From: Flavobacteriales bacterium | GTDB taxonomy: Bacteria > Bacteroidota > Bacteroidia > NS11-12g > UBA955 | Direction: 5' to 3' | NCBI GenBank assembly: GCA_947447955.1 | Contig: CANFLS010000002.1 | Span: 9,072 to 73,071, forward strand | Length of the DNA stretch: 64,000 bases | In this document: piece by piece, positions 1 through 47,001 of the stretch | Layout: every line of letters begins with the position of its first letter | Position numbering within the stretch: the first letter of the stretch is position 1 | Made by a program: the position numbers and the translations under genes | Notes under the pieces: model-generated | Seen by the model: the letters and a program-made list of their open reading frames with translations, nothing else | What the model was told of the DNA's origin: nothing | Databases searched by the model: none

Positions 1-2
1 TT

Positions 3-845
3 ATGATTCGAAAAGCACAAAGACAAAAAGCAAAAATTAAACTCGCCCTACAAGGATCTAGTGGTTCTGGAAAAACGTATTCCGCACTTCAAATAGCAAA
101 TGGTATGGCTGAATGGAATAAAATCTGTGTCATTGATACAGAAAACAATTCAGCTGATTTGTACTCACATTTAGGACCGTACAACGTGCTTACATTAAGC
201 AAACCTTTCACTCCTGAAAAGTACATTGAAGCCATCTCAGAATGCGAAAAATTAGAAATGGAAGTCATTATCATTGATTCCCTATCTCATGAATGGGATG
301 GAGATGGAGGGATTTTAGAAACACATTCAAATATGCCAGGTAATTCATTTACGAACTGGTCTAAATTGACTCCGCGACATAATGCCTGTGTTCAAAGAAT
401 CCTAAACGTAAATGCCCATGTAATCGCAACATTGAGAACCAAACAAGATTATGTCCTTACAGATAAAAATGGAAAGATGGTTCCTGAGAAAGTAGGTTTA
501 AAATCTATTACCCGTGATGGTATGGATTATGAGTTTACAATTGTGTTTGAAATAGATATCACGCATAAATGTGCTGCATCCAAAGATAGAACAGGAATAT
601 TTGTTCAGGATTTTCCATTTCAAGCTTCCAAGATAACAGGACAGCGAATTCTAAACTGGTGTGAAAGCGGAGATAAAACAATTGCTCAACAGATTGAAGA
701 ATGTACCGACGTACAATCCCTCAAAATTCTGTATTACGATTTGTCCCTATCTGAAAAGTCAATGTATCACAAGGATTTTTTAGCCCGTCAAATAGAACTT
801 AAACCAAAATTTGAAAGCAATGGAGCTAGCCACATTCATCAATGA
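3..845 (+). CDS. AAA_24/Sak4-like P-loop ATPase (phage/element recombination-associated ATP-binding protein). The start sits at the window edge and may be 5'-partial.
   Basis: Walker A 'GSSGSGKT' near the N-terminus, a Walker B-like 'VIIIDS' and RecA-like spacing. This is typical of phage AAA_24 ATPases and lies on the integrase-bearing element. Confidence 0.55.
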   Translation: MIRKAQRQKAKIKLALQGSSGSGKTYSALQIANGMAEWNKICVIDTENNSADLYSHLGPYNVLTLSKPFTPEKYIEAISECEKLEMEVIIIDSLSHEWDGDGGILETHSNMPGNSFTNWSKLTPRHNACVQRILNVNAHVIATLRTKQDYVLTDKNGKMVPEKVGLKSITRDGMDYEFTIVFEIDITHKCAASKDRTGIFVQDFPFQASKITGQRILNWCESGDKTIAQQIEECTDVQSLKILYYDLSLSEKSMYHKDFLARQIELKPKFESNGASHIHQ

Positions 846-1758
846 GAACATCGCAGAAGCGAGAGTTTCATCCGACAGCCGATTTATTCATGCGAATACA
901 AAATCTGTTTCATTAAACCACCTTAGAGACGATTGCGTAATACCAGTTTTTTCGAAGGACAATGAACCAACTATTAGCAATGCAGACTTCGTTGAAAGCG
1001 TTTATAATGCTGTTCAGAATGTATTTTGCACGGAGGACATTCTTTTGCCTTCTGTAAGGGTTTCTCATCCAATTAAGGGTAGAATTCCAGATGCAAAAGA
1101 TAAGGCAGCAGAAGAGCTCCTAGACGGCGAAAAAACGGTTTATTATGAACGGGTAATGTTCACTATTGAAATCCCTTCTATTTATCGTGTAATCAATGGC
1201 AATCACCTTACTTTGACTGTCGGTGGTGTTAGGGGTTATCACCTAGAAAACCTTTATTCTAAGCGTTCTTTACAGAAATTCAAGGTATTTGTTGGTTTCA
1301 GAAACAGGGTTTGTTGTAATATGTGCGTCAGTACCGATGGAATCTTGGATGATTTAAAAGTAGGTACGAGTTCTGAGCTTTCGGACACAACAGAAAATCT
1401 ACTTTTGAAGTACGAATCAGCAGAAACTTTGGCTCAATATTCTCATTGGGGAAGAACCAAACTTACCGAACAGCAATTTGCTGAATTCTTGGGAAGATGT
1501 AGAATGTTGAATTTTATGCCATCCATTGAAAAGAAGAAGCTGCCAGAATTATTGTTTACCGACCATCACTTAAATTTGGTTGCTGAGGGATATTTCAAAG
1601 ACCAACACTTCGGTAGAGAAAAAGACGGCAGCATTGACCTATGGAAACTTTACAACCTATTTACAAGTGCTAACAAATCAAGTTATATTGATCGATTCCT
1701 AGATAGAGGCGTAAATGCAGCCACAGTAATTTCTAATTTAGAAAGTTATTTATTCTGA
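811..1758 (+). CDS. DUF3871-like hypothetical protein. It is commonly paired with an AAA ATPase on Bacteroidota mobile elements.
   Basis: 315-aa ORF that overlaps the end of the ATPase gene. I recognise the family only loosely from memory of the ATPase+DUF3871 pairing. Confidence 0.35.
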   Translation: MKAMELATFINENIAEARVSSDSRFIHANTKSVSLNHLRDDCVIPVFSKDNEPTISNADFVESVYNAVQNVFCTEDILLPSVRVSHPIKGRIPDAKDKAAEELLDGEKTVYYERVMFTIEIPSIYRVINGNHLTLTVGGVRGYHLENLYSKRSLQKFKVFVGFRNRVCCNMCVSTDGILDDLKVGTSSELSDTTENLLLKYESAETLAQYSHWGRTKLTEQQFAEFLGRCRMLNFMPSIEKKKLPELLFTDHHLNLVAEGYFKDQHFGREKDGSIDLWKLYNLFTSANKSSYIDRFLDRGVNAATVISNLESYLF

Positions 1759-1788
1759 CTGTAGTTGCGTTGATTAACTTTTAATGTG

Positions 1789-1824
1789 AATCCCTCCAAT
1801 TTAATTGGGGGGATTTATTTTTAT
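1789..1824. terminator. Bidirectional hairpin terminator between convergent genes
   Basis: Imperfect inverted repeat 'aatccctccaa...ttggggggatt' followed by a T-rich run. It sits between the + gene ending at 1758 and the - gene ending at 1855. Confidence 0.4.
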
Positions 1825-1854
1825 ATTGAGCAATTCTAAATATTTTAAACCCTA

Positions 1855-2439
1855 TTATAAAATCAGCCAAGTCATCATAACAACCACATAAGCTCCAAAA
1901 CTAATCAAGCCAATTTTCTTGTTATGTTTTCCTACTTTTTCACGTTCAGCATTATTCATGGCAGCTTTACTTGCATCGTATTTGGGATTCGGAACTAAAT
2001 GCGAATAATTCACACCATAAGATTCCCATTTTGTTACTGTATCATTTGTAAACCAAAATTGAACATACGTTTCAATCGTTGAACTATTAACGGTTTGTCT
2101 ATTAACTTGATTTTGAGTTGTATTTAAAGCTCTATCCTGTGGTCTTAAATAAGGATTCAAGGGATCCTGATATATCCTTCCGACACCGCTTGAAAAGCCA
2201 ATACTTGTTGAGTTTGTTACTTCCGATAATTTGAAGTACCAATTTTCAATATTCTCAAAAGTTTCCTTTCTAGTCGGAGTACCATATTTTACAAATACAG
2301 ATTTTTTAGTTGGAAAATCCTCAGTCATAACCTCGTTGTGCGGTTTCATAATTGATTCCGATATAGTATACGGTGGAGGAACAACTGCACAAGAACTTAC
2401 CCAAATCACTACTAATAAAGCTAATAAATAATTTTTCAT
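1855..2439 (-). CDS. Hypothetical lipoprotein
   Basis: N-terminal signal peptide 'MKNYLLALLVVIWVSSC' with a lipobox Cys. No recognisable catalytic motif. Confidence 0.5.
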   Translation of the reverse strand: MKNYLLALLVVIWVSSCAVVPPPYTISESIMKPHNEVMTEDFPTKKSVFVKYGTPTRKETFENIENWYFKLSEVTNSTSIGFSSGVGRIYQDPLNPYLRPQDRALNTTQNQVNRQTVNSSTIETYVQFWFTNDTVTKWESYGVNYSHLVPNPKYDASKAAMNNAEREKVGKHNKKIGLISFGAYVVVMMTWLIL

Positions 2440-2504
2440 TATTGCAAATCTAAAGCATCAAACCTATTATTTGAAAAAAATCCATAAACTTTAATAACAC
2501 CATT

Positions 2505-2954
2505 ATGAAAAACCCAAACATACAAGAAATCAAACTCCATTATATTGCAAACACAAGCAATGAACCAATCACCATAAAAAGCTCACAGGAAGCGTTTAAG
2601 GCCTTCAAAAACATCTTTGATCAAAATACCTTAGCCGTTAGGGAAGAGTTCAATATAATCTATTTAAATAGGGCAAACAAAGTCATCGGAACCTACCAAG
2701 ATTTCAAAGGCGGAATTACAGGTGTAGCAGTCGATTTAAGGCTGATATTTGCTGTTGCTTTAAAATGCCTTGCTGTAACCATTATAGTGGCCCACAACCA
2801 TCCTACGAACAATTTAAAACCATCACAGGAAGATTTAGACATTACACAGAAACTTCATGATGTAGGAAAAATCCTCGACATCAAACTAATGGACCATCTG
2901 ATTCTAGGAACGGATAACAATTATGTGAGTTTTGTGCAGGAAGGGTGGATGTGA
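2505..2954 (+). CDS. radC: RadC-like JAB/MPN domain protein
   Basis: JAMM motif 'HNHP' plus a downstream 'D' in 'VAHNHPTNNLKPSQEDLDIT', in a 149-aa protein. This is typical of RadC proteins on mobile elements. Confidence 0.8.
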   Translation: MKNPNIQEIKLHYIANTSNEPITIKSSQEAFKAFKNIFDQNTLAVREEFNIIYLNRANKVIGTYQDFKGGITGVAVDLRLIFAVALKCLAVTIIVAHNHPTNNLKPSQEDLDITQKLHDVGKILDIKLMDHLILGTDNNYVSFVQEGWM

Positions 2955-3032
2955 TGAAAATCAAAAATTCCGTTCATTTAATTAAAATTTAAAATATATC
3001 TAAATTTAACACAAAAAATTATCTTTGCCATT

Positions 3033-3767
3033 ATGCAATTCAGGAAATTTATAATGATGATAGTTTTAGGTTTGATGTTTTCTAATTTATCCAGCCAATC
3101 AAAATTATCAGTAGAAAAAAAGCTAACTCCGACTGGATTTGGAAAATTAAAAATTAACAAGACAACAGTTTCAGACTTGTTGAAGGGTGATTCAGATATT
3201 TTGTATTTTTTTTTAATAAAAAACAACATCGACACTTTAACAGGGAATGGGCCTGATTTCAATGAGTTTGGGTCAGAATTTTCGAATATTCTAATTTATT
3301 CAAATTTGTATTATGGCTACAAAGTAAGAATGGGAATCATCAAAGAATACACCATAGGAGAATCAAAAATAAATTTGGCTTTGGTGTTTTATAATGATAC
3401 TTTAGTTCAATTAACTATAGCTAATTTAAATTCTGAACTTCATGATCAATGGAAATTAAAATACGGGGATGGTATCTTGACATCTCAACTCAAAAAGATT
3501 AAGTGTAGCAATATGTATGGAGAATTTAGTGAAGAAGAATTGTATTCAACAGTTAACTGGGGCAATAATTTATCGAAAGTATTAGCAACCTGGGAGTTTG
3601 ATAAATATTATGATTCAAAATGTCAAAAACAATATATGGATTATTTTAAGGTACAAAATCCTAAAAAAATGAAAATTGTAGAAACAATTTCGAATAAAAA
3701 CATATTGAAAATTCAGGGATTAATTGAAAGAAAAAAGAAAAATGAAGCTTTAAAATCAGACCTCTAA
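3033..3767 (+). CDS. Hypothetical secreted protein
   Basis: Signal-peptide-like N-terminus 'MMIVLGLMFSNLSSQ'. No motif recognised. Confidence 0.45.
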   Translation: MQFRKFIMMIVLGLMFSNLSSQSKLSVEKKLTPTGFGKLKINKTTVSDLLKGDSDILYFFLIKNNIDTLTGNGPDFNEFGSEFSNILIYSNLYYGYKVRMGIIKEYTIGESKINLALVFYNDTLVQLTIANLNSELHDQWKLKYGDGILTSQLKKIKCSNMYGEFSEEELYSTVNWGNNLSKVLATWEFDKYYDSKCQKQYMDYFKVQNPKKMKIVETISNKNILKIQGLIERKKKNEALKSDL

Positions 3768-3793
3768 ATACTTATTTTAAATTCCAACTTAAC

Positions 3794-4084
3794 TCAATCA
3801 GTCCTTTGTAACCACTCCAATCCTTTCATAGTCCAGCTTATAAGCAATTCACATTCTTCTGGAGACAACCCTTTTGTTCTGTTTATCTCAAACGTATCGA
3901 TAGATACATGAAAACCACCTAGACATTCTAAGTCCCAAATTACGTAAGTATTGCTTTCATCAAGATATGCATCTGCATTCAGAACTTGCTCATCTCTATT
4001 AAATTTACATATTAGAATCCTTTTGGATGGATCACGTGGTGCTAATGCATATTGAAAAGGCCCGTAAGAAATATAGTTATACAA
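3794..4084 (-). CDS. Small hypothetical protein, paralogue 1 of a tandem pair
   Basis: 96 aa. Its C-terminal half aligns with the neighbouring 100-aa protein: 'VIWDLECLGGFHVSIDTFEINRTKGLSPEECELLISWT' against 'VVWEVDEIGTYHVSLDNLDIDKTEGLFQEETELLQFWT'. Confidence 0.55.
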   Translation of the reverse strand: MYNYISYGPFQYALAPRDPSKRILICKFNRDEQVLNADAYLDESNTYVIWDLECLGGFHVSIDTFEINRTKGLSPEECELLISWTMKGLEWLQRTD

Positions 4085-4126
4085 AACTTGAGTTTTTTAA
4101 TTGAAGTTAATTGTTAAAACATGACA

Positions 4127-4429
4127 TCAGCCTTCTAACAAATGCATTCCATGGTGATTTGTCCAGAATTGGAGCAATTCAGTTTCTTCTTGAAATAAGC
4201 CTTCCGTTTTATCAATATCCAAATTGTCTAATGAAACGTGATAGGTTCCTATTTCATCAACTTCCCATACTACACACGTTTTACTAATATTAAGCGAACC
4301 TTCGGCAGTGATTCTTTGTTCTCCTCTGTGCAGAGTGCCAATTATTACTGTTTTCAAAGGGTCATAATCTGACCTAGGTGTTTCAACTGGAGGTTCAGCA
4401 ATTTTCAATTTGATGTCATTGGTGGTCAT
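4127..4429 (-). CDS. Small hypothetical protein, paralogue 2 of a tandem pair
   Basis: 100 aa, paralogous to 3794..4084. Immediately downstream of the caspase-like gene on the same strand. Confidence 0.55.
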   Translation of the reverse strand: MTTNDIKLKIAEPPVETPRSDYDPLKTVIIGTLHRGEQRITAEGSLNISKTCVVWEVDEIGTYHVSLDNLDIDKTEGLFQEETELLQFWTNHHGMHLLEG

Positions 4430-4485
4430 TTTGAGGGATTTTGTCTATGATTTTTATTAATTATTGAAACCTAAATGAGTATTTC

Positions 4486-5217
4486 TTAATTTAACTTAAA
4501 AAGCTTTGAAAATTCTTGTAAATTCAAGTTGCCCAAGATGTAATCACTCTTTTGAACAGCAAGTTCATCTTTATTTATTTCCTGAACAAATTGTTCAAAG
4601 CTAAATGCTGAATTTTCATTTAATTTTTCCATCAGGGATATGAAGAATTTTTGTGTACCATATCCTCCATGAAAATTTGTATAAGCGAAATTCTCAAGTT
4701 CAGTAACATAGTACATCATGTAAAATGAGTTCATGCAATTTAGGGTATTTTCCCATTGCACTCTATTCTGTTCCGATTTTCCAGGAAAAGAGTATTCTTT
4801 TCTTAAAACTTCAAACTTAGGCGAATTAGGTGCAGGGTTGTTTGACCTACAACAATCCATAAAAATCCATTGTTTCTTATTAGGCCTTATGAATTCAGAT
4901 TCATATATGCTCTGGCCATCCTTAAGAGGGATTTGAATTCTTCTATCCACAAAATTTGAATGTCCCGAAAAATATATAAACGTATAATCAGAAGCGTCTA
5001 TTAACTCAAATATTGCATCACGGGTAATGTCATTTGTTTTGCATGTTGAAATTTCATCATCATTAAAAGAACCACCTGAAGCGGAAGTCAAAAAACACTT
5101 AATAAGTCCCAAATCCGATTCGGATTTAAACTCTTCAGAAGCGTCTAAGCTATTATCATTACAAAGAAGAATTGCTTTTCTTGTGATTTTTTTATGTTCA
5201 TTCATGGGATTATGCAT
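4486..5217 (-). CDS. Caspase-like (peptidase C14 / CHAT-like fold) cysteine protease domain protein
   Basis: beta1-like 'KAILLCND'. Catalytic-His motif 'IYFSGHS'. Catalytic-Cys motif 'IFMDCCRS' about 46 residues later, which matches the caspase/metacaspase His-Cys dyad spacing. The start overlaps the upstream small gene by 8 nt. Confidence 0.6.
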   Translation of the reverse strand: MHNPMNEHKKITRKAILLCNDNSLDASEEFKSESDLGLIKCFLTSASGGSFNDDEISTCKTNDITRDAIFELIDASDYTFIYFSGHSNFVDRRIQIPLKDGQSIYESEFIRPNKKQWIFMDCCRSNNPAPNSPKFEVLRKEYSFPGKSEQNRVQWENTLNCMNSFYMMYYVTELENFAYTNFHGGYGTQKFFISLMEKLNENSAFSFEQFVQEINKDELAVQKSDYILGNLNLQEFSKLFKLN

Positions 5218-5512
5218 CTTTATTTGTCCTGAAAATTTCTATTGCTAAATTCCTTTTTTCATGGAAAACTGTTGGGTGTACATACTCGCATTTGCCATCT
5301 TTTTCTATCCGAAAATATTCTATATGACGATGTATTCCAGCACCATCATTCGAAACATCATCTGGGACTACAGCCAGGAGATATACAATTTCTTCTAATT
5401 CGTAGTAAATCACATTTAAACAACGTCTGCTACCCCACGACAAATAATCAATTATTTGAGTTTCAAGCCTTGCATTAAACTCATCAACTGTTATTTGCTG
5501 TTCATTGGTCAT
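5210..5512 (-). CDS. Small hypothetical protein (100 aa) in an operon with the caspase-like gene
   Basis: Overlaps the downstream caspase-like ORF, so translational coupling is likely. Its start ATG overlaps the stop of an upstream paralogue remnant (ATGA). Confidence 0.5.
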   Translation of the reverse strand: MTNEQQITVDEFNARLETQIIDYLSWGSRRCLNVIYYELEEIVYLLAVVPDDVSNDGAGIHRHIEYFRIEKDGKCEYVHPTVFHEKRNLAIEIFRTNKDA

Positions 5513-5652
5513 ATTGGTATTTTATTTTTAGGTATAAGCAATTTTGTCCAAAATTGAAGCATCTCTGATTCTTCTGACGACAAACCTTCCGTTTTATCAA
5601 CAATTAATTTATATTGGATATATTTTTCAACTACTTCAATTTGCCTAACTTT
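5509..5652 (-). pseudogene. C-terminal remnant of a third member of the small-protein paralogue family. It has no start codon.
   Basis: The minus-strand frame translates to '...KLIVDKTEGLSSEESEMLQFWTKLLIPKNKIPI*'. This matches the C-termini of the 3794..4084 and 4127..4429 proteins, and the nucleotide string 'ccttccgttttatcaa' is shared with 4127..4429. There is no ATG in frame after the upstream stop. Confidence 0.45.
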
Positions 5653-7097
5653 TTCATATTGTTATATGTCCATGAGTTTTGTTTAGACGCAAAAAGTTGA
5701 CGACCATTTTTTTTGTAAAACTCTTCACCTGTCAGTGGATCCCGAATTTTTACTGACCACAAATCATCTTTAAAAAGAAGGTGCTCAGTTAGACTTCTTA
5801 TTGCACCACCAGCAGTAGTAACATTATAAACCGAAACATATTGCTTTCCACGCCTCGTCACTTCTACCTTGTTTAGAACTGCGTTTTTTGAAAGAATATA
5901 CTCTTCGGCTTTTTTGTGTTTTTTAGTACGTTCATCTTCAATTGTATCAGACCATCTAAATCTACTATCTACAATTGGGAATTTAACATTCGCTGATATT
6001 TCGATACCTTTATTCTTCAATTCAGAAATAATGAAATTAACAGAATCTTCAAACCGAAGCAAACTGGGAATTTCAGGTACAACAATTAAATTCACCCCAT
6101 ATTGTTTACATTTTTCTATTTTAAGTTTGTCATCTTGCAACAATTTTTTAGTTCCTCTATGATACTTTTCTGAGTAATGTTGTTTACCATTATGTTCAAA
6201 AGCAATTTTTAAATGATCAGAAAACCCATCTAATTCTAGTCGATTTCCTTCATTATTTAGCAACCATGTAGGTCTAACTTTTAAAAACGGAACTTCGAAA
6301 ATTGATTCGAAAATAAATCTACAAACTCTTTCGCCGACACCAGCTGAACAATAGGGACACCAAATTGATTGACTTTTGATAGTGCTATATTTTGATTTAA
6401 ACTCATGTCCATCTTTACATTTCCAAACTTGCAACTCATATGGATTGTATGTTTCTGATAAAAACTTTCCGTTCCTTGTTTCGGCGAGTGAAATACAATC
6501 TGCAATTGTAACTTTCCCTTTACCACTGCATTTTGGGCAATTTTGTTTATGATTTTTAATATTGTTGTATGTCATTGTAAAAACATGACCTTTTTTATTG
6601 CATTTCCATTGTGCTTTTATAGTTGTTCTATTTGGAATTTGAAGAGATAACAATTCACAATCCACGTGAATACCCGCCATTACATAATCATCTCGTGAAA
6701 CTTTTGTTCGGTCTTTTTGCCAAAGCTCAGTTGATAGACAAATTTTACACCAACTACCTTTAGATAAAGATTGTCCATGAGGATAAAATATATGCCCCTC
6801 ACCACATTTTACCTTGTATTTTGTATGTTGATTGATATATTGCTCACTTAGGAATTCACCACCTTTTTGTTTGCAAATTTCCCGCATGTCATCTATTGTA
6901 ATTTTCTTTTGGCCAGCACAATTAGGACACCAACTTCCTCTTAATATAGAATCCGCAGTGGCAGACCAAATGTGACCATGTTCACATTCCCAATCATAAT
7001 GTGCTTTTACACCAGAATATTCACTACTAAGGCATTTACCCAATTTTTCATTTGCGGTAAAACGCAAGTCTGTTATAGTTTTCTTTGGGTTATTCAT
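5631..7097 (-). CDS. Multi-zinc-ribbon (DUF4379-like repeats) protein with a C-terminal Vsr/DUF559-like (restriction-endonuclease-fold) domain
   Basis: About five repeats of 'W.C..GH.W......G.WCP.C' in the N-terminal 250 aa. The C-terminal 'LELDGFSDHLKIAFEHNGKQHY' matches the DUF559/Vsr 'vDF....klaiEvDGgqH' pattern. Confidence 0.5.
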   Translation of the reverse strand: MNNPKKTITDLRFTANEKLGKCLSSEYSGVKAHYDWECEHGHIWSATADSILRGSWCPNCAGQKKITIDDMREICKQKGGEFLSEQYINQHTKYKVKCGEGHIFYPHGQSLSKGSWCKICLSTELWQKDRTKVSRDDYVMAGIHVDCELLSLQIPNRTTIKAQWKCNKKGHVFTMTYNNIKNHKQNCPKCSGKGKVTIADCISLAETRNGKFLSETYNPYELQVWKCKDGHEFKSKYSTIKSQSIWCPYCSAGVGERVCRFIFESIFEVPFLKVRPTWLLNNEGNRLELDGFSDHLKIAFEHNGKQHYSEKYHRGTKKLLQDDKLKIEKCKQYGVNLIVVPEIPSLLRFEDSVNFIISELKNKGIEISANVKFPIVDSRFRWSDTIEDERTKKHKKAEEYILSKNAVLNKVEVTRRGKQYVSVYNVTTAGGAIRSLTEHLLFKDDLWSVKIRDPLTGEEFYKKNGRQLFASKQNSWTYNNMKKLGKLK

Positions 7098-7192
7098 TAT
7101 ATATCGTGAAGCGTTTATTAAACTATTTAATGAATATCGAAATAAATTGAATTCGAGGGCAGTTTATTCAAAAATCACAAAAAAAATCCAAA

Positions 7193-7232
7193 TTACAACA
7201 AAAAAAACTCCACTCATTGCTGGGTGGAGTTG
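7193..7232 (-). terminator. Rho-independent terminator downstream of the 7256..7861 gene
   Basis: Hairpin 'ctccactcattgctgggtggag' followed, on the minus strand, by a T-run. Confidence 0.45.
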
Positions 7233-7255
7233 AAAACATGTAACATAAAAAGTAT

Positions 7256-7861
7256 CTAGAAAGAACATTCGGCATCGAATTTTTCTTGAAAATACTTTTT
7301 AGGATTACACAATAGCTTCTCACGCATTACCTCGAGGGTTTTATGACCGTGAATTCCAAAATACAGAACAGGTCCAATAAGCGAATTGTCTAATGGCACG
7401 ATTGCATCAAAAGGATTGTTAAATTCATCATTCCTACTAAATAGATTAAAAATCAGGTATGACAAGTTTAGGGATTTGTTGAGTTTGTTTAACTCTGCAA
7501 TTGCTTCTGCATCCAATACTACATCTTTATTTGGAGTTGGAAAATTAATTAATGGGTTTGTCAAATCTTTAAATTTTAGGCCAAATAGTTTACCTTGTTG
7601 CAATAGTTCAAAATTGATTTGCTTACCAAAATCGCCCCAAGTGTAACTACTCATTTCGATTACTGCGTCTTCGTAATCTTTGCGTGAATCAAATCCAAAA
7701 TTTCCATCTTGATGTTCACTTTTTGTTTTTTTAATTTTATCTATTATGTTCATGATATGTTTGCCTTTAGGCAATACAAAGATACAAAATGATAAAAAAA
7801 TTACCAGTAAAATGTATAAATATTTATCAACAGTTACGTTTACATTCAACCCATAAAACAA
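7256..7861 (-). CDS. Hypothetical membrane-anchored protein
   Basis: 201-aa ORF with a hydrophobic N-terminal segment 'YLYILLVIFLSFCIFVL'. Confidence 0.4.
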   Translation of the reverse strand: MFYGLNVNVTVDKYLYILLVIFLSFCIFVLPKGKHIMNIIDKIKKTKSEHQDGNFGFDSRKDYEDAVIEMSSYTWGDFGKQINFELLQQGKLFGLKFKDLTNPLINFPTPNKDVVLDAEAIAELNKLNKSLNLSYLIFNLFSRNDEFNNPFDAIVPLDNSLIGPVLYFGIHGHKTLEVMREKLLCNPKKYFQEKFDAECSF

Positions 7862-8059
7862 AGAAAAAGCAGGGCATTTAACAACCCTGCTTCAACTGGT
7901 TTAACGATTTTATTAGTAACGTATGGCTATTGCACTATCCTCTTTGATTGAAAGGATTTTTAATTTATTTAATTTGGCTGATAGGATACAAATGCATTGA
8001 ATTTCAAAACACATCACGCGACCTGTTTACAAATCTTTAATTTAACATATTTTATTAGA

Positions 8060-9775
8060 TTATATAGCATGTACCCTACCAAATTCATCTATCCTAAATA
8101 AATTCAAATCCTTAAAAATTTGCATCATCATTCGACTTTGTTTAGCATCTATATCATAATTATCCTGAAGAATCCATTCTAAATCCAAATAATAAACCTC
8201 TTCCTGTCTAAAAATACCAGGCCCTGTTTTGAAAAAATCTTCTGCAGCCAAATAGAAATTTTCGTCTTCACCATATACAGAACTACCAATCCTGTCATGT
8301 ATAAATTTTATAATTGGGTCAAGAACATATTCTGTTTCTGATTCAGGCAAAACCAAAATTTCAGGGTTGAAATCGAAACTACCTTCACCTTCTTTTCCTA
8401 GTAAATCTTGAGTGTTGAAGGTAACACGTTCATTTAATTTCAAAATTACATTTTCGCAATTTCCATTACTTCGGCGAAATCCTTCATTTGCCTGAGAGAT
8501 CTCTTTATTACCCTCACCTTCAAAATTCACTATGGTTTGAGGGCTGAAGGTTGAAGCATCTGGATTTTCTGCTGTATCAAATATATTTTCGTTACCATCA
8601 CCTTCAACTTTTTCTTGGGTATTTGGTGTGAAGGTTGTTTTTGTCTCAGCATTTATTTCCGAAGAATCTTTGGGGGCAAATTCATCAAGATAGTAAAGTC
8701 CTTTTACATTTTTAACTCTTTCTATTGTTGCCAAATCTCTTAAACGACGTTCGGCCGTTGTTAATGATACATTTAAAAAAGTTTTAATTTTTAGACACGT
8801 AGTTTTAAACGGAAAACCTTTATCTTTAAATATCATGAATAAATCGGACTCAGTTAATTCTTGTTTGCTTTTTTTAACGTTACTATTCATTGATTCCCAA
8901 TTACCCATAACATCAAAGGTTAATGTTTCCTCTTCAAACTCAACTGGGAGTCTATTTTCCTTGTAAAAGTTGGATGTATAATTTCCTTTGGCTACGTTAA
9001 AAAACTTTTGTCCACTTTCGTTTCTAGATAAATATAATGCATATCTAACTTTTTGGGTTAACCCACTACCGCCTTGTATTAATTCTTGAGATGGATTACT
9101 CTTGTATCCAGCTTTATTAACGTGATGAACAAAAAGAAGAGCCAATCTATGGGTTCTGACTAATTCATCAAACGCTTTGATGTCCCGCCTCATCTGAATA
9201 TTGCTGTTTGTATCGGAACCAGAAAATATATCTCCAAACGCATCTACAATAATTAGATCGACTGGATTTTCTTCACAGAATAAAGACAACTTCTTTATTA
9301 ATTCAGTGATTGTTTCATCGGTTAAAAAAGCCAAGCTAAGATTGTTTTTATCAAGATCTACATGTTTCAGCAATTGCTTGTTTAAACTGCTACTAACGGC
9401 ATCCTCTTGGTCTTCCGTAAAAACATAAAGAACCCGATTGTGAATCGGTTTTAATCTCTGGCCCAAATATTCGGTAGAGCCTTTTGCAATTGTTATAGCC
9501 AATTCTTTAGCTAGTTGAGATTTTCCCATATCAGGAGGTCCAACCAATAATCCTGTTCCTGTGCGAGGAATTAGGTTATCCCATAAGAAGTCCGTTTCTT
9601 TTCCATCAAAGGATGCCAAAAGTTCGGTAGCTGTGTAAACTAATAAGCTACTTTTAGTTTTAACAGCGGTTGTGATTGAACTAACGTTGGTTTGTTCGTG
9701 TGCTCCAGATGAATCTTTCCGATACTCTGAGCTTTTTATTAAATTACTCATAATTGAATGCAAAATTGGCAGCAT
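8060..9775 (-). CDS. AAA_25/RepA-like P-loop ATPase (primase-associated replicative helicase of integrative elements)
   Basis: Walker A 'GPPDMGKS' and Walker B 'LIIVDAF' in a RecA-like core, with a long C-terminal extension. It sits in the position typical of element replication modules, near the integrase and excisionase-like genes. Confidence 0.6.
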   Translation of the reverse strand: MLPILHSIMSNLIKSSEYRKDSSGAHEQTNVSSITTAVKTKSSLLVYTATELLASFDGKETDFLWDNLIPRTGTGLLVGPPDMGKSQLAKELAITIAKGSTEYLGQRLKPIHNRVLYVFTEDQEDAVSSSLNKQLLKHVDLDKNNLSLAFLTDETITELIKKLSLFCEENPVDLIIVDAFGDIFSGSDTNSNIQMRRDIKAFDELVRTHRLALLFVHHVNKAGYKSNPSQELIQGGSGLTQKVRYALYLSRNESGQKFFNVAKGNYTSNFYKENRLPVEFEEETLTFDVMGNWESMNSNVKKSKQELTESDLFMIFKDKGFPFKTTCLKIKTFLNVSLTTAERRLRDLATIERVKNVKGLYYLDEFAPKDSSEINAETKTTFTPNTQEKVEGDGNENIFDTAENPDASTFSPQTIVNFEGEGNKEISQANEGFRRSNGNCENVILKLNERVTFNTQDLLGKEGEGSFDFNPEILVLPESETEYVLDPIIKFIHDRIGSSVYGEDENFYLAAEDFFKTGPGIFRQEEVYYLDLEWILQDNYDIDAKQSRMMMQIFKDLNLFRIDEFGRVHAI

Positions 9776-9800
9776 TCAAGCACTTAACATTCACCCAATT

Positions 9801-10598
9801 TTAAGGTGAATTTTCACTATCGTATTGACTAATAGCATTATGAATGCTTTTTGTAAATTCTTTTAGACGCTCAAATCCTGCATTTTCTGTGTCGCTCATT
9901 ACTGAATTATCGATAGGATTACCTTTTACATCCAATTTCAAAGAAGGCTTTTGTCGTTTTTTAATTCTATTCCAAGCTGTGATAGTATCTTTATATGAGT
10001 TTTCGATATCTAACCTACCGTTATAAAAAAATCCACTTTTGAATATCAAATCTTTAAGGTTGGACATGTCTATTTCCTCCGTTTCTTTTTTAAACGCTCC
10101 AAACTCTTTCAAACTATACAAAACCATCAAAACCTCCCTGTAAGTCCACTTCCAGTTTATAAATTCAATATCTTCCGTAACAAATGGGTAAGCGACTAAA
10201 ATATGGTCAAATTTATTTTTTAAATTAATCCTTACATATTTTATCACATATTTTTTCTTATCTAATTTCAGTCGTTTATTTTCATTTATCAAATCGACAA
10301 GTTTTCTTTGGACCCATTCCAAAAACTTGGCTTTGTAATCCATTTCTGTATAAAATGCCAACTGCACACTTATAGAATTAATTAAAGTTTCCATTTGAGA
10401 TTGAATTATTTCATCCGCAAAATCATCGCCATCCTTCAAATTTTTTAACCATTGTGAAAATTCCTTTAGGGTTTTCTTAAAATCTGCAAATTCACCAGCA
10501 ACTGTTTGTGTCATATTCAAATATATAAAACATTCCCCCAAAACAAAAAAGGTGTCCTTACCAAGAACACCCTTTTCATCTAAAACCACAACCAACAA
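9801..10598 (-). CDS. Hypothetical protein (element-encoded)
   Basis: 265-aa ORF between the helicase and the HTH gene. No motif recognised. Confidence 0.4.
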   Translation of the reverse strand: MLVVVLDEKGVLGKDTFFVLGECFIYLNMTQTVAGEFADFKKTLKEFSQWLKNLKDGDDFADEIIQSQMETLINSISVQLAFYTEMDYKAKFLEWVQRKLVDLINENKRLKLDKKKYVIKYVRINLKNKFDHILVAYPFVTEDIEFINWKWTYREVLMVLYSLKEFGAFKKETEEIDMSNLKDLIFKSGFFYNGRLDIENSYKDTITAWNRIKKRQKPSLKLDVKGNPIDNSVMSDTENAGFERLKEFTKSIHNAISQYDSENSP

Positions 10599-10877
10599 CT
10601 ACGCACACTCCCTACACTTAACTTTATTCTTCTCCATTTGCTCGTAGACGGAGTTTATGTCGTAATAATACATATTACCATACAATGTGAATGTAAGAGC
10701 TCCATTGATCCTTAAATCGGTTAATTTGGTGGTTGAAATTTGAAGCAGTTCTTTGACTTCTGCTCCTTTTAACCATTGTCTGGGATTTCTCTCATTTTGT
10801 AACAAGTCTGTCATAGCTGCTATCATCTCTGCTTTGAACTTGCTGAAGTGTTCTTCAGTAACTAAATCTATTTTCAT
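10599..10877 (-). CDS. Helix-turn-helix DNA-binding protein (excisionase/Xis-like, HTH_17 type)
   Basis: 92 aa with a 'WLKGAEVKELLQISTTKLTDLRINGAL' HTH motif. It lies immediately upstream of the integrase, which is the usual Bacteroidota int-xis arrangement. Confidence 0.6.
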   Translation of the reverse strand: MKIDLVTEEHFSKFKAEMIAAMTDLLQNERNPRQWLKGAEVKELLQISTTKLTDLRINGALTFTLYGNMYYYDINSVYEQMEKNKVKCRECA

Positions 10878-10879
10878 GA

Positions 10880-12208
10880 TTAAATAATTTTTTGTAATTG
10901 TGGTGCTTGTTCAGAATCTTCATTCGAATTGTCTTCATCTGGCCATTGGGTAGTCAGTTCTCTCAGTTTTACCATTTCCCCCAATATTTTCTGATTCGTT
11001 ACCTTGGCGTAAATCTGCGTTGTTTTGATATCAGAATGACCAAGCATCTTACTTACGCTTTCCATAGATATTCCCTGAGTCAAAGTTATGGTAGTAGCAA
11101 ACGTATGTCGAGCCAAATGTGTAGTAAGCGTTTTGTTGATTCCACATATATCTCCAATTTCTTTTAAATATGCATTCATCTTTTGATTGCTCAACACTGG
11201 CAACACTTTTTTATCAATTTCTCTAGCAGGATGGCCATTGTACTTTTTAATAATTCTCAATGCTGCTGGTAAAAGTGGAACATTAACACCATTGCCAGTT
11301 TTTTTACGTGATGTATTAACCCATTGTTCCCCATCTATTCCCATGGAGATTTGATCTATGGTTAACATTTTAATGTCGATATACGCTAATCCCGTATAAC
11401 AGCAAAACACAAAAATGTCCTTTACCATTTCTAACCGTTCATTTGAAAAAACCTTTGCTTCCAATACGCTCAATTCTTCCATTGTTAAATAGCCCCTGTT
11501 AACCTCCCTGATTTTTCCCTTGTACTTTACATATGGGTCTTTGCTAATCATTTCAGTATTTAAAGCATATCCAATAACCGTTCTAAAGTACTTTACATAT
11601 TTAACGGCCGCATTATTGCCAATTCCTTTATCCGTTCGTAAGAAGTGCTCAAAATCCATCAAATTGGAAAATTTAAAGTCGTCGACTGCGACATCTTGAA
11701 CGTTCAACTTTTTGTTCAAGAAATCAAGCAAATGAACTTTTAGGGTGCAATATTTTCGATATGTTAAATGACTGTATTCAATACCTACCAAATCTTTTCT
11801 AATGGCAATAAACCTTTCAAAGATTTCCATAAGGGTAACTCGTTTTTCTGGAGTGCCTAAGTAATGCTTTTTAATGTCATAGACGCTAATTGCATTGCCA
11901 TTACCTACCAACATGGAATACACCTGATAGATGTTGTTGTTAATGTCTCCTAAGCAAGAATTGATGGTTTTAGATTGCTCTGATGAACCTCTTGCCCTTT
12001 TGTTAATTTCACACCATTTGTTAGCTTCAATTTTCAAACCAGTGCTCATTTCAACCCTTTGAGAGTTAAGTGTGATTCGGACGTAAATAATTACTTTTTC
12101 GTCATTCGATGTTCTTGTTTTGCGTGTTGTAAAAATAACGCTGAAAGAATTGTACATTTTTTTACTAATTATATCCATAAAGTTACTACATTTTGCTTCG
12201 AAAGTCAA
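10880..12208 (-). CDS. int: Tyrosine-type site-specific integrase
   Basis: C-terminal catalytic region 'HLARHTFATTITLTQGISMESVSKMLGHSDIKTTQIYAKV' carries the R..H..R..Y signature. An N-terminal Arm-type domain is present. It is adjacent to the tRNA-Asp 3' end. Confidence 0.9.
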   Translation of the reverse strand: MTFEAKCSNFMDIISKKMYNSFSVIFTTRKTRTSNDEKVIIYVRITLNSQRVEMSTGLKIEANKWCEINKRARGSSEQSKTINSCLGDINNNIYQVYSMLVGNGNAISVYDIKKHYLGTPEKRVTLMEIFERFIAIRKDLVGIEYSHLTYRKYCTLKVHLLDFLNKKLNVQDVAVDDFKFSNLMDFEHFLRTDKGIGNNAAVKYVKYFRTVIGYALNTEMISKDPYVKYKGKIREVNRGYLTMEELSVLEAKVFSNERLEMVKDIFVFCCYTGLAYIDIKMLTIDQISMGIDGEQWVNTSRKKTGNGVNVPLLPAALRIIKKYNGHPAREIDKKVLPVLSNQKMNAYLKEIGDICGINKTLTTHLARHTFATTITLTQGISMESVSKMLGHSDIKTTQIYAKVTNQKILGEMVKLRELTTQWPDEDNSNEDSEQAPQLQKII

Positions 12209-12340
12209 GTGAAGTTTTCAACACTATCAACAATATAGCAATAACTTAGAGCCATCCGAGGGAGTCTTTTTTCGCCTAATGACATGACTCCCGAATTGCT
12301 CCCCCTAATGAGCTAATTTTACGGGTATTTTAGATTCGAC

Positions 12341-12380
12341 TAAAAACAAAAAACCCCGTAAACACTAGATTTACGGGGCT
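12341..12380 (-). terminator. Rho-independent terminator downstream of tRNA-Asp
   Basis: Hairpin 'ccccgtaaacactagatttacgggg' followed, on the minus strand, by a T-run. Confidence 0.5.
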
Positions 12381-12403
12381 TAATGATTAAATAATAATTT
12401 TAG

Positions 12404-12480
12404 TGGCGGTCTGGACGGGACTCGAACCCGCGACCCCATGCGTGACAGGCATGTATTCTAACCAGCTGAACTACCAAACC
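12404..12480 (-). tRNA. tRNA-Asp (anticodon GUC)
   Basis: Reverse complement 'GGTTTGGTAGTTCAGCTGGTTAGAATACATGCCTGTCACGCATGGGGGTCGCGGGTTCGAGTCCCGTCCAGACCGCCA'. It folds as a cloverleaf with anticodon loop 'CTGTCAC' and is near-identical to E. coli tRNA-Asp. Confidence 0.9.
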
Positions 12481-42958: not shown

Positions 42959-43321
42959 GGTCTCCCACAATATCAACTTCGTCACCGTCTTTTCCATTTA
43001 CTTCAATGATGATTTAAATATCATCCATGACCTATGCGGTCTCTGAACGCCACCACATCCGTTGGAACACATGGACTAGTTGGAGAAAACTCATTTGCCC
43101 CAAATTTTCTGTGTGTTTTATCATCCGTTTTTGCAAGGTTTTTCCCTATTTCTCTCAAATCTTGCAATTTTGAACACATATTTCGTTCACATCCTGTACA
43201 TTGGGCTTATATCCTTGCCCTTTTCAAGGGTCGACTAACTAATTTGAACTATGTTTGAAACATCATTAACAAACAAGACTTCCAGTTTCCCGAAAGCTTT
43301 GTCCTGATTGAGTATGGATTG

Positions 43322-43436
43322 CGAGATTATCTCCAATGATCTCGTGGGGGTGGTGGCTCAACCCAAAAGCCTCCGCTGCTTCGCAGCTAGCGGGCTTTTT
43401 CATGCATCCCTCTCTCAAACTTCGTTTGGATTCGGT
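43322..43436. repeat. Copy D1 of the ~115-bp repeat family (tandem with D2)
   Basis: 'agattatctccaatgatctcgtgggggtggtggctcaacccaaaagcctccgctgcttcgcagctagcgggctttttcatgcatccctctctcaaacttcgtttggattcggtc'. Confidence 0.8.
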
Positions 43437-43574
43437 CGAGACTATCCTCGATAATCTTAACAGATTATCTCCAATGATCTCGTGGGGGTGGTGGCTCAAC
43501 CCAAAAGCCTGCGCAGCTTCGCAGCTAGCGGGCTTTTTCATGCATCCCTCTCTCAAACTTCGTTTGGATTCGGT
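43437..43574. repeat. Copy D2 of the repeat family
   Basis: Near-identical to D1, with an additional 5' segment shared with copy B ('tatcctcgataatcttaacagattatctcc'). Confidence 0.8.
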
Positions 43575-43579
43575 CTGCA

Positions 43580-43612
43580 TGAAAAAGCCCTACGCTTCGC
43601 GTAAGGCTTTTT
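43580..43612 (-). terminator. Rho-independent terminator downstream of tRNA-Pro
   Basis: On the minus strand: 'aagccttacgcgaagcgtagggcttttt'. Confidence 0.55.
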
Positions 43613-43615
43613 TGT

Positions 43616-45005: not shown

Positions 45006-45037
45006 AGGTCAAAGATAAACATAAATGTTTATCTTTT

Positions 45038-46992: not shown

Positions 46993-47001
46993 GTGTATAT
47001 T

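What the first reader, a model, noticed from the sequence alone, without database searches (positions are those of the whole stretch)
1..12480. Integrative element (PICI-like) inserted at the tRNA-Asp 3' end and extending beyond the window
A tyrosine integrase (10880..12208) lies directly adjacent to the 3' end of the minus-strand tRNA-Asp, and they are transcribed in the same direction. Behind the integrase sit an Xis-like HTH protein, a RepA/AAA_25 helicase, an AAA_24 Sak4-like ATPase with a DUF3871 partner, RadC/JAB, and cargo genes including the candidate defence operon. No capsid or tail genes are seen in the 12 kb visible. The layout int-xis-(hyp)-primase/helicase-accessory resembles phage-inducible chromosomal islands and Bacteroidota mobilizable elements. 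The left boundary (attL) must lie upstream of coordinate 1.
Basis: partly seen in the sequence, partly recalled or inferred. Interest (0 to 1): 0.5.

Follow-up and report, generated by a model that had tools for sequence, protein, structure and literature searches.

The report
Excisable tRNA-Asp island in a flavobacterium
This is a real, complete 19.7-kb mobile island inserted into the end of a tRNA-Asp gene of a freshwater Flavobacteriales bacterium; it is also found as an excised circle, but it is an ordinary kind of element and nothing shows that it is a phage satellite.

Summary
tRNA-Asp(GTC) lies at 12404-12480(-). A tyrosine integrase (10880-12157) starts 246 nt from the tRNA's 3' end. 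A 222-kb metagenome contig identical to the window supplies the missing left side. There, the last 19 nt of the tRNA (TGGCGGTCTGGACGGGACT) recur exactly, 7,275 nt left of window position 1. The element is therefore 19,679 bp, and 63% of it lies in the window.

Related genomes at about 90% nucleotide identity have the empty site, with the left flank joined directly to the tRNA. One independent 19,650-nt contig is 100% identical to the circularly permuted element across the predicted attP. So the element excises, or forms tandem copies.

No ORF of the whole element matches a capsid, terminase, portal, tail, lysis, relaxase or conjugation-pore family. The backbone is Int, a small Xis-like protein, a 237-aa protein and a RepA-like AAA_25 helicase. 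It also includes an iteron-like array followed by a 115-aa gene, AAA_24 and DUF3871. Sister elements keep this backbone and carry a type I restriction-modification system in the cargo slot.

"PICI-like" holds only for the layout; the defining packaging module was not found. I rate it a new member of a known kind, of modest interest.

The parts
1..12422 (.). The right 63% of a 19,679-bp integrative element. The element continues left of the window to attL at window -7275..-7257 (L001:1859-1877).
   Evidence: L001 is identical to the window over 10,843 nt and extends 9,136 nt further left. The 19-nt core is repeated exactly. Unit length is 19,679 bp, with GC 0.320 against 0.353 and 0.364 in the flanks.
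12404..12480 (-). tRNA-Asp(GTC), the integration target. It is intact because the element supplies a copy of its last 19 nt.
   Evidence: ARAGORN and Rfam. The same tRNA sits next to the M1 peptidase gene in many Flavobacteriales MAGs.
12404..12422 (.). attR core, TGGCGGTCTGGACGGGACT. It is the complement of the tRNA's 3'-terminal 19 nt, including the encoded CCA.
   Evidence: Exact second copy at L001:1859-1877. In alignment A1 the core is invariant and the sequences diverge on either side of it.
12209..12403 (.). Right-end (attP-derived) arm. It holds a candidate arm-type Int site, TGACTCCCGAATTGCT, at 12285-12300, an inverted partial copy at 12260-12266, and an element-supplied terminator hairpin at 12352-12378 just downstream of the tRNA.
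   Evidence: The 16-mer occurs only twice in 73 kb. The other copy is at L001:1933-1948, 56 nt inside attL. It is conserved in L016, L019 and L112. Protein binding is inferred, not shown.
10880..12157 (-). Tyrosine integrase, 425 aa, reading inward from the attR end.
   Evidence: Pfam Arm-DNA-bind_5, Phage_int_SAM_5 and Phage_integrase; phrog_1 integrase, E 4e-39. HxxR and the catalytic Tyr motif (HLARH ... GHSDIKTTQIY) are visible in the sequence.
10599..10877 (-). 92-aa Xis-like small DNA-binding protein. The assignment rests on position and weak similarity.
   Evidence: It starts 2 nt after the int stop codon. phrog_668 HTH DNA-binding, E 6e-4; no Pfam or NCBIfam hit. Conserved next to int in sister elements L112 and L113.
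9801..10514 (-). 237-aa protein always paired with the helicase. It is a candidate replication initiator or helicase loader (inference).
   Evidence: Only 11 homologues in 5.8 billion proteins. A protein of 233-269 aa sits between int and AAA_25 in L095, L096, L098 and L112. The AlphaFold model is all-helical but poor, pLDDT 69.
8060..9775 (-). RepA-type (AAA_25) hexameric-helicase-like protein, 571 aa, with a C-terminal extension of about 300 aa and no detected domain.
   Evidence: Pfam AAA_25, E 8e-24, residues 62-223. PDB RSF1010 RepA 1g8y, E 0.0017. 27-30% identity to 'helicase RepA family' genes of small mobilizable plasmids. phrogs primase/helicase families match the ATPase region only.
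7256..7774 (-). 172-aa conserved hypothetical protein at the helicase-side edge of the cargo slot.
   Evidence: Called in all copies. A 164-aa gene holds the same position in L112, with weak nucleotide similarity. No family hit.
4127..7097 (-). Variable cargo slot. It holds a 488-aa protein with DUF4379 zinc-ribbon repeats and an HNH-like endonuclease region (5631-7097), a 100-aa protein (5210-5512), a 243-aa caspase-like protein (4486-5217), and the conserved 100-aa boundary gene (4127-4429).
   Evidence: Pfam DUF4379, E 2e-13, and Peptidase_C14, E 2e-4, at threshold. phrog_559 HNH endonuclease, E 3e-38. No PADLOC hit. Sister elements L112 and L114 carry hsdMSR in this slot beside the same 100-aa gene, which is 91% and 79% identical.
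3794..4084 (-). Diverged paralogue of the 100-aa boundary gene (36% aa identity). Public gene callers do not call it.
   Evidence: Alignment A5. The 58-nt repeat family has copies at 3828-3885, 4158-4215 and 5543-5600 (L001 coordinates minus 9134).
1855..3767 (.). Accessory genes: a 194-aa lipoprotein (1855-2439, -), RadC/JAB (2505-2954, +) and a 236-aa secreted protein (3057-3767, +).
   Evidence: Pfam RadC, E 1e-35. Signal and lipobox sequences can be read. RadC is conserved in sister element L114.
3..1758 (+). Conserved AAA_24 (3-845) and DUF3871 (820-1758) pair. It is preceded, outside the window, by a 115-aa gene (L001:8701-9048) and an iteron-like array (L001:8286-8554, window -848..-580).
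   Evidence: Pfam AAA_24, E 6e-17, and DUF3871, E 5e-111. phrog_1366, E 2e-76. The trio is conserved at 83% nt in L114. The DUF3871 model (pLDDT 80) resembles phage DUF932/TIGR03299 proteins by Foldseek, E 1e-5 to 1e-3, TM 0.4-0.57.

Best explanation
A 19,679-bp integrative element of a freshwater Flavobacteriales bacterium that can excise and probably replicates on its own.

Shown:
- It is bounded by an exact 19-nt direct repeat of the 3' end of tRNA-Asp(GTC).
- The site is empty in related genomes.
- The attP junction exists in an independent assembly, as a contig that is essentially one circular unit.

Inferred mechanism:
- The arm-binding tyrosine integrase recombines the attP core with the last 19 nt of the tRNA gene. 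It may use the two TGACTCCCG[A/T]ATTGCT sites that flank the core.
- The element replaces the displaced tRNA end and supplies its own terminator.
- The 92-aa protein next to int acts as the directionality factor for excision.
- The circle is then maintained or amplified by a RepA-type helicase with its 237-aa partner. The iteron-like array beside the 115-aa/AAA_24/DUF3871 operon would serve as origin or operator.
- The HTH_3 protein at the far left end is transcribed divergently from int across attP in the circle, and is the likely master regulator.

The rest is cargo. It includes a set of signal-peptide proteins with a 744-aa secreted MORN/trypsin-like protease. It also includes a swappable slot that holds nuclease-like and caspase-like genes here and type I restriction-modification genes in sister elements.

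The element encodes no recognisable means of leaving the cell, so its transfer route is unknown.
For: - Boundaries: the exact 19-mer lies at L001:1859-1877 and window 12404-12422, with about 7e-8 chance matches expected.
- Empty sites: in L015 and L108 (flanks 89-93% nt identical), the TA-side flank and terminator join directly to core plus tRNA. L105, L106, L017 and L018 show the same in more distant relatives.
- Excised form: contig ERZ27263685 k141_436188 (19,650 nt) matches the permuted unit with 0 mismatches. The 419-nt predicted attP is found exactly.
- Integrated form: all 4 contigs that carry the identical M1 peptidase have it, namely 3 of 0.2-1 Mb (one read as L117, the other two reported only as similar places not shown) plus the 15.8-kb contig of NCBI MAG GCA_947371205.1.
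- Enzymes: integrase domains; RepA-type helicase.
- Repeats: iteron-like array; arm-site pair.
- Family: sister elements keep int, xis, the 237-aa gene and AAA_25 at 90.7% nt, and the 115-aa/AAA_24/DUF3871 trio at 83% nt, with different cargo.
- No virion, lysis, relaxase or T4SS families were hit in any ORF.
Against: - Replication is inferred from homology only. No primase or initiator was recognised, and the 237-aa model is poor.
- A head-to-tail tandem in the chromosome would give the same attP junction.
- No same-species empty site was seen among the 4 contigs with the identical flanking gene, so recent mobility within this population rests on the attP contig alone.
- The Xis assignment is weak.
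- Many ORFs have no detectable family, so an unrecognised transfer or packaging function cannot be excluded.
Confidence: 0.82

Rival explanations
1. Phage satellite (PICI-like or VEIME-like). A helper phage induces excision and replication, and the 19.7-kb circle is packaged into helper capsids using determinants that current profiles do not recognise.
For: - The layout is int, xis, a replication module and a repressor, with no structural genes.
- In one sample the assembler ran straight through attP. This suggests the excised form outnumbered the integrated junctions (inference).
- AAA_24 is a strongly phage-associated family (phrog_1366, E 2e-76). The AAA_24 and DUF3871 pair also occurs on a human-gut virome scaffold, MT839478, at 55% and 50% identity.
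- Marine virion-encapsidated elements are reported integrated in Flavobacteria, and some encode HNH endonucleases and serine proteases (PMC9618062).
Against: - No terS, capsid, portal, cpm/ppi-like or other packaging gene was found in any ORF.
- The element's junctions are absent from IMG/VR, and its helicase family has only two distant hits there.
- No helper phage is identified.
- The sample type of the attP contig is unknown.
Confidence: 0.2
2. Integrative mobilizable element that excises and is transferred by a co-resident conjugative element through an unrecognised oriT. It would resemble relaxase-less mobilizable islands or Bacteroides NBU-type elements.
For: - The integrase has the Bacteroidota architecture Arm-DNA-bind_5, SAM_5 and catalytic domain. 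From memory, this architecture is shared with the integrases of Bacteroides mobilizable and conjugative transposons.
- The closest plasmid relatives of the RepA helicase are on small mobilizable plasmids.
- DUF3871 resembles DUF932/TIGR03299 'phage/plasmid-like' proteins.
Against: No relaxase, Mob or coupling protein was hit. No oriT can be recognised. No conjugative element is seen in the window.
Confidence: 0.15
3. The attP junction comes from a chromosomal head-to-tail tandem duplication of the island and not from a free circle.
For: Site-specific integration of a second copy into attL or attR gives exactly this junction. Collapsing a tandem repeat in a short-read assembly also yields a unit-length contig (inference). 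Other islands at this site show complex duplicated att structures, as in L019 and L107.
Against: With a tandem, the attL and attR branches would be as abundant as attP and should break the contig at the core. Instead the contig crosses attP and breaks elsewhere, 29 nt short of a full unit. In the 222-kb contig of another sample the element is single-copy.
Confidence: 0.1
4. Decayed prophage or immobile remnant island fixed next to the tRNA.
For: Decayed remnants do exist at the same site in relatives. L016 keeps only about 380 nt, including the right-end arm.
Against: In this copy both att cores are exact, all backbone ORFs are intact, and independent samples hold copies with 0 mismatches, including the attP form. 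No phage structural gene fragments were found.
Confidence: 0.03

Closest known systems
Cargo-carrying tycheposons of Prochlorococcus (bioRxiv 10.1101/2020.12.28.424599, read)
   Same: A site-specific tyrosine integrase faces inward at one end, with a small replication module beside it. The element integrates at a tRNA and leaves a partial tRNA repeat at the far end. It has a swappable cargo module. Decayed elements pile up at the same tRNA. It has no capsid or conjugation genes and is 10-20 kb in size.
   Different: The host phylum and habitat differ (freshwater Flavobacteriales). Tycheposons are defined by their own integrase lineages and hallmark gene profiles, which I could not test. Here the helicase is of the RepA/AAA_25 type, with DUF3871 and AAA_24 partners.
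Phage-inducible chromosomal islands (PICIs) and marine virion-encapsidated elements (VEIMEs, PMC9618062)
   Same: It has int at one end, a small Xis/AlpA-like protein, a replication helicase and an HTH regulator. It lacks tail and lysis genes, integrates at a specific site and forms a circular excised molecule.
   Different: No terS, capsid-redirection or capsid genes were detected. No helper phage and no virion evidence are available. At 19.7 kb it sits at the upper edge of the 10-20 kb quoted for PICIs in the tycheposon preprint. About half of it is secreted-protein cargo.
Bacteroides NBU1/Tn4555-type mobilizable elements (comparison from memory)
   Same: It has a Bacteroidota-type tyrosine integrase with an N-terminal arm-binding domain. 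NBU1 also integrates into the 3' end of a tRNA gene (tRNA-Leu). It forms an excised circle.
   Different: Those elements are defined by a relaxase (Mob) and an oriT. Neither was found here.
RSF1010 (IncQ) RepA replicative helicase, PDB 1g8y
   Same: The AAA_25 ATPase core aligns over residues 61-254. 'Helicase RepA family' genes of small plasmids are its nearest plasmid relatives.
   Different: Identity is only 27-30% over 40% of the protein. A C-terminal extension of about 300 aa has no match. No RepB primase or RepC initiator homologue was detected.
Bacteroides finegoldii 'plasmid 58' (NZ_OY725960.1), 15.5 kb, circular, uncharacterised
   Same: It is a circular molecule that carries site-specific integrases, small HTH proteins, DUF3871 (43% identical) and a restriction-modification cargo gene.
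   Different: It has two integrases and an additional gene annotated only as 'recombinase family protein'. No AAA_25 or AAA_24 gene is annotated. It is known only as a database record.

Membership tests
Site-specific integrative element at a tRNA gene (generic genomic island) | Tyrosine or serine recombinase gene at one end, next to the att site | tested here: met
   Integrase 10880-12157(-), 246 nt from the tRNA end.
Site-specific integrative element at a tRNA gene (generic genomic island) | Direct repeats that duplicate part of the tRNA bound the element | tested here: met
   Exact 19-nt repeat at L001:1859-1877 and window 12404-12422.
Site-specific integrative element at a tRNA gene (generic genomic island) | Unoccupied attB in related genomes | tested here: met
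   L015, L108, L105, L106, L017 and L018. Not seen within the same species.
Site-specific integrative element at a tRNA gene (generic genomic island) | Excision product with an attP junction | tested here: met
   A 19,650-nt contig with 0 mismatches to the permuted unit, and the exact 419-nt attP. A tandem copy is not formally excluded.
PICI / phage satellite | Packaging or capsid-redirection module (terS, cpm/ppi, or capsid genes in cfPICIs) | tested here: not met
   No such Pfam or PHROG family in any ORF of 55 aa or more across the 19.7 kb.
PICI / phage satellite | Replication module (primase and/or helicase plus an origin) | tested here: inconclusive
   A RepA-type helicase and an iteron-like array are present. 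No primase domain was found, and origin function is untested.
PICI / phage satellite | Induction by a helper phage and packaging into its virions | not testable with these tools
   The junctions are absent from IMG/VR and the helicase family has only two distant hits there. The sample fraction of the attP contig is unknown.
PICI / phage satellite | Absence of tail and lysis genes; size well below that of a phage | tested here: met
   None detected. Size is 19.7 kb.
Integrative mobilizable element (NBU-type IME) | Relaxase (Mob) gene and oriT | tested here: not met
   No relaxase or Mob family hit in Pfam or NCBIfam. oriT cannot be tested.
Integrative conjugative element (CTn) | Type IV secretion (Tra) genes and a coupling protein | tested here: not met
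   None found. The element is too small.
Temperate prophage | Major capsid, portal, terminase, tail and lysis genes | tested here: not met
   No PHROG structural, packaging or lysis family except a protease-domain match of the secreted trypsin-like protein. The DUF3871 fold is not a jelly-roll or HK97 capsid fold.
Tycheposon | Inward-facing site-specific integrase at one end, an adjacent small replication module, cargo, and a tRNA target with a partial-tRNA repeat | tested here: met
   definition as read.
Tycheposon | Integrase belongs to the tycheposon-specific recombinase lineages and shares their hallmark gene profiles | not testable with these tools
   The profiles and trees are not available here. 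The architecture points to a Bacteroidota integrase clade instead.

The most novel reading that the evidence does not exclude
The element and its sister elements form a so-far undescribed family of capsid-less hitchhikers in freshwater Flavobacteriales. Under this reading they are phage satellites or vesicle-borne replicons. The conserved backbone of uncharacterised proteins (the 237-aa protein, the extended RepA helicase, the 115-aa/AAA_24/DUF3871 trio) would carry induction, over-replication and packaging functions that no current profile recognises. The swappable slot would deliver anti-phage systems. The dominance of the attP form in one sample would then reflect an induction event.
Probability: 0.2. 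Interest if true: 0.6.

Novelty: new member of a known kind. Interest (0 to 1): 0.35.

Why it matters
This is a cleanly delimited, apparently active mobile element from an uncultured freshwater Flavobacteriales lineage. Its core att sequence, candidate arm sites, empty site and circular form were all recovered from public data. It shows that this tRNA-Asp locus is an island hotspot, and that a small conserved backbone shuttles interchangeable cargo: type I restriction-modification genes in some copies, nuclease-like and caspase-like genes in this one. That places the neighbouring 'candidate defence operon' in a slot that holds a known defence system in sister elements. The element also gives a concrete test case for how elements without relaxase or capsid genes move. 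In itself it is an ordinary kind of element.

Tried and rejected
The true repeat is the terminal 19 nt.
- Exact-protein look-ups failed for the TTG-start DUF3871 ORF and for an M1 peptidase start I had guessed.
- IMG/VR searches gave nothing with the single helicase and only two distant hits of 35% and 27% identity with the family alignment. The four-junction pattern had no viral hit.
- PADLOC returned no known defence family for the caspase-like operon, the DUF4379 protein, AAA_24 or DUF3871. It matched only the protease domain of the secreted trypsin-like protein.
- NCBIfam added nothing specific.
- Rfam found no RNA family in the element other than the tRNA.
- The 237-aa protein model was too poor to search (pLDDT 69), and its PDB sequence search gave only noise.
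- Logan contigs break at window 12433-12435. I considered this as evidence for mixed junctions. I rejected it as ambiguous, because the identical tRNA is shared by related species in the same samples.
- No paper was found for the sample or assembly accessions, and only one irrelevant paper mentions DUF3871.
- Relative L098 was checked for terminal overlap that would indicate a circle. None was found.

Full report
**Observation**

ARAGORN finds tRNA-Asp(GTC) at 12404-12480 on the minus strand, and Rfam agrees. The neighbouring minus-strand ORF, 10880-12208, is called from 12157 by public gene callers, giving 425 aa. It carries Arm-DNA-bind_5, Phage_int_SAM_5 and Phage_integrase domains and matches phrog_1 integrase at E 4e-39. 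It starts 246 nt from the tRNA's 3' end and runs in the same direction.

- a 92-aa protein (10599-10877), with only weak HTH support (phrog_668, E 6e-4; no Pfam hit);
- a 237-aa hypothetical protein;
- an AAA_25 protein (8060-9775);
- RadC (2505-2954);
- an AAA_24 (3-845) and DUF3871 (820-1758) pair.

The described features are all present at the stated coordinates.

**Finding the left end**

The AAA_24 protein is encoded on 15 public contigs. One of them, ENA ERZ27263722 k141_1556852 (222,446 nt; locus L001), is identical to the window over 10,843 nt and extends 9,136 nt further left. L001 coordinates equal window coordinates plus 9134.

A k-mer comparison between the tRNA region and this extension gives one long exact match. 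TGGCGGTCTGGACGGGACT occurs at L001:1859-1877 (window -7275..-7257) and at window 12404-12422. About 7e-8 such matches are expected by chance. This 19-mer is the complement of the last 19 nt of the tRNA, including the encoded CCA.

From core to core the element measures 19,679 bp, of which 63% lies in the window. Its GC content is 0.320, against 0.353 for the left flank and 0.364 for the right.

Left of attL the contig carries:
- a hairpin terminator;
- a small ORF;
- a PIN/DUF2281 toxin-antitoxin pair;
- the 5' end of a 16S rRNA gene at the very end of the contig (the AGAGTTTGATCCTGGCTCAG site is read directly).

The rRNA gene explains why the assembly stops there.

**Is it an insertion?**

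A scan of one genome per species with the adjacent M1 peptidase shows that tRNA-Asp next to this peptidase is conserved synteny in many Flavobacteriales MAGs from freshwater. The host is therefore an uncultured freshwater Flavobacteriales bacterium.

In the closest species representative, L015 (peptidase 94% identical; flanks 89% and 93% nt), the TA-side flank and its terminator are joined directly to the core and the rest of the tRNA. A degenerate pattern that matches all four possible junction types found four JGI metagenome contigs:
- L108 is an empty site and matches both flanks at about 90% nt.
- L105 and L106 are empty sites in more distant relatives.
- L107 has the attB-type junction (chromosomal-type terminator, core, tRNA), but a different mosaic island lies to its left, so it is not counted as an empty site.

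Alignment A1 shows the three-way relation expected for site-specific recombination. attL shares its left side with attB, attR shares its right side with attB, and the sequences switch at the 19-nt core.

Other relatives carry other things at the same site:
- L016 has a remnant of about 380 nt that keeps the element's right arm.
- L019 has a 1.9-kb island with a 284-aa ORF and a duplicated terminator plus core. I read the ORF as KilA-N-like from its sequence only.
- L107 has a different mosaic island that shares the iteron region and the 115-aa gene.

The locus is therefore an integration hotspot.

Among the four contigs that encode the identical peptidase, all carry the element. I did not see an empty site within the same species.

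**Does it excise?**

Looking up the integrase returned, besides the integrated copies, contig ERZ27263685 k141_436188 (19,650 nt). In it the integrase end is joined to the element's left-end genes.

The contig, rebuilt from loci L002 and L102, aligns to the circularly permuted unit over its full length with 0 mismatches and 0 gaps. It contains the 419-nt attP that I predicted from attL and attR, exactly. Only 29 nt of the circle are missing. One further similar place was reported but not shown.

The assembler crossed attP and did not break at the core, so the attP form was probably much more abundant there than attL or attR (inference). That fits an amplified extrachromosomal state. A chromosomal tandem cannot be formally excluded.

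**Anatomy of the whole element** (L001 coordinates for the part outside the window)

- attL core at 1859-1877.
- Candidate arm site at 1933-1948.
- HTH_3 regulator, 218 aa (1986-2642), matching phrog_3 repressor and RstR-like families.
- Six small proteins with signal-peptide or lipoprotein N-termini, two of them paralogous.
- A 744-aa secreted MORN plus trypsin-like protease (5467-7701).
- Two small membrane proteins.
- An array of three to four iteron-like repeats with a 53-nt period (8286-8554).
- A 115-aa gene, after which the in-window genes listed under 'parts' follow.

In the circle the HTH gene and int are transcribed divergently across attP. The motif TGACTCCCG[A/T]ATTGCT occurs only twice in 73 kb, once on each side of the core. 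It is conserved in L016, L019 and L112. I propose these as arm-type sites for the integrase's N-terminal domain, which is an inference. The element also supplies a terminator hairpin (12352-12378) just downstream of the reconstituted tRNA.

**What kind of element?**

Every ORF of at least 55 aa was scanned against Pfam and PHROGs, and a subset against NCBIfam and PADLOC. There is no capsid, portal, terminase (large or small), tail, lysis, relaxase/Mob, coupling-protein or T4SS family.

- The AAA_25 core aligns to the RSF1010 RepA helicase (1g8y, E 0.0017). It also aligns to 'helicase RepA family' genes of small mobilizable plasmids at 27-30% identity. No primase domain is detected.
- The helicase family is tiny, with 30 proteins in 5.8 billion, and so is that of its 237-aa partner, with 11.
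- Its relatives sit in the same int, hypothetical, AAA_25 arrangement. One of them lies next to a tRNA-Asn gene.
- The helicase family is essentially absent from IMG/VR, and so are the element's junction sequences.
- AAA_24 belongs to a strongly phage-associated family (phrog_1366, E 2e-76).

**Sister elements and cargo**

L112 shares int (87% aa), the 92-aa gene, the 237-aa gene and AAA_25 at 90.7% nt. L114 and L115 share the 115-aa/AAA_24/DUF3871 trio (83% nt), RadC and the 100-aa gene.

Between the conserved 100-aa gene and the helicase module these relatives carry hsdM, hsdS and hsdR. The present element carries instead the DUF4379/HNH-like 488-aa protein, a caspase-like 243-aa protein and a second 100-aa protein.

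Fragments of the 100-aa gene recur at the edges of this slot. They may be the substrate for cargo exchange by homologous recombination, which is an inference. None of the cargo genes here matches a PADLOC model.

A Pontibacter chromosome and a circular 15.5-kb Bacteroides finegoldii 'plasmid' likewise combine DUF3871 with restriction-modification or other defence genes. The Pontibacter island also carries an AAA_25 gene, and the B. finegoldii record carries two integrases.

**Comparison with known kinds**

- The element works like a cargo-carrying tycheposon as defined in the Prochlorococcus study. That means an inward-facing site-specific integrase, an adjacent small replication module, cargo, a tRNA target with a partial-tRNA repeat, and decayed elements accumulating at the same tRNA. 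Membership cannot be tested, because it depends on lineage-specific integrase and hallmark profiles.
- It resembles PICIs and marine virion-encapsidated elements in layout, but fails the defining packaging-module test.
- It fails the relaxase test for NBU-type mobilizable elements, and the structural-gene test for prophages and ICEs.

**Verdict**

This is a real, complete and apparently active integrative element. It is a new member of a known kind, not a new kind.

What remains open is how an element without any recognisable transfer function spreads. The satellite reading is not excluded (about 0.2), and read mapping and virus-fraction data from the same lakes could decide it.

Noticed in passing
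L001:1128-1211 and L001:1742-1825 (left of attL, outside the window): An 84-nt direct repeat (85% identical) brackets a segment of about 530 bp with a 126-aa ORF, between the PIN/DUF2281 toxin-antitoxin pair and attL. Sister genomes L015, L016 and L108 have a single copy and lack the segment, so this is a separate small insertion or duplication.
   Followed up: partly
L001:1-50: The 222-kb contig ends in the reverse complement of the 5' end of a 16S rRNA gene (27F primer site). The island therefore lies about 1.8 kb from an rRNA operon, and the rRNA repeat explains the contig break.
   Followed up: no
L001:8286-8554 (window -848..-580): Three to four iteron-like repeats of about 30 nt recur at a 53-nt period. 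Each contains a short palindrome (for example GGAATTCC), and a C-rich tract follows. They lie upstream of the conserved 115-aa/AAA_24/DUF3871 operon and are 84% conserved in L107. Several Logan contigs break just downstream of the array, at window -517 to -355.
   Followed up: partly
window 3828-3885, 4158-4215 and 5543-5600: A 58-nt segment from the 3' part of the conserved 100-aa gene (4127-4429) recurs in a diverged paralogue (3794-4084) and as an intergenic fragment. Together these copies bracket the caspase-like cargo, so they may be recombination scars from cargo swapping.
   Followed up: partly
L112:1-330: A sister element with an 87%-identical integrase and a 90.7%-identical backbone abuts a different tRNA-like 3' end (TGCGGAGAGTTAGGGATTCGAACCCC...). 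The contig ends 54 nt in, so the tRNA could not be identified. This may be a recent change of target.
   Followed up: partly
L016:1250-1640; L019:7879-9867; L107:1-4507: Other occupants sit at the same tRNA-Asp site in relatives. L016 has a decayed remnant of about 380 nt that keeps the right arm. L019 has a 1.9-kb island with a 284-aa ORF (read as KilA-N-like from its sequence only), in which terminator plus core are duplicated. L107 has a mosaic island that shares the iteron region and the 115-aa gene.
   Followed up: partly
L116 (NZ_OY725960.1, Bacteroides finegoldii 'plasmid 58'): This 15.5-kb circular record carries two site-specific integrases, two small HTH genes, DUF3871 and an Eco57I-type restriction-modification gene. 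It looks like an excised integrative element deposited as a plasmid.
   Followed up: no
L099 (MT839478.1, 4.2-kb human-gut virome scaffold): It carries the AAA_24 and DUF3871 gene pair at 55% and 50% identity. The record is unverified, linear and unannotated.
   Followed up: no
L001:2871-7701 (left half of the element): A run of small proteins with signal-peptide or lipoprotein N-termini, two of them paralogous (130 aa and 153 aa), ends in a 744-aa secreted MORN-repeat and trypsin-like protease. A trypsin/TPR protein also lies three genes beyond the AAA_24 and DUF3871 pair in relative L098.
   Followed up: partly
window 43000-49000 and 52000-57000: Composition shifts elsewhere in the window. 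GC rises to 0.41-0.44 around tRNA-Pro (43616-43692) and falls to 0.30 at 53-57 kb. I did not examine these regions.
   Followed up: no
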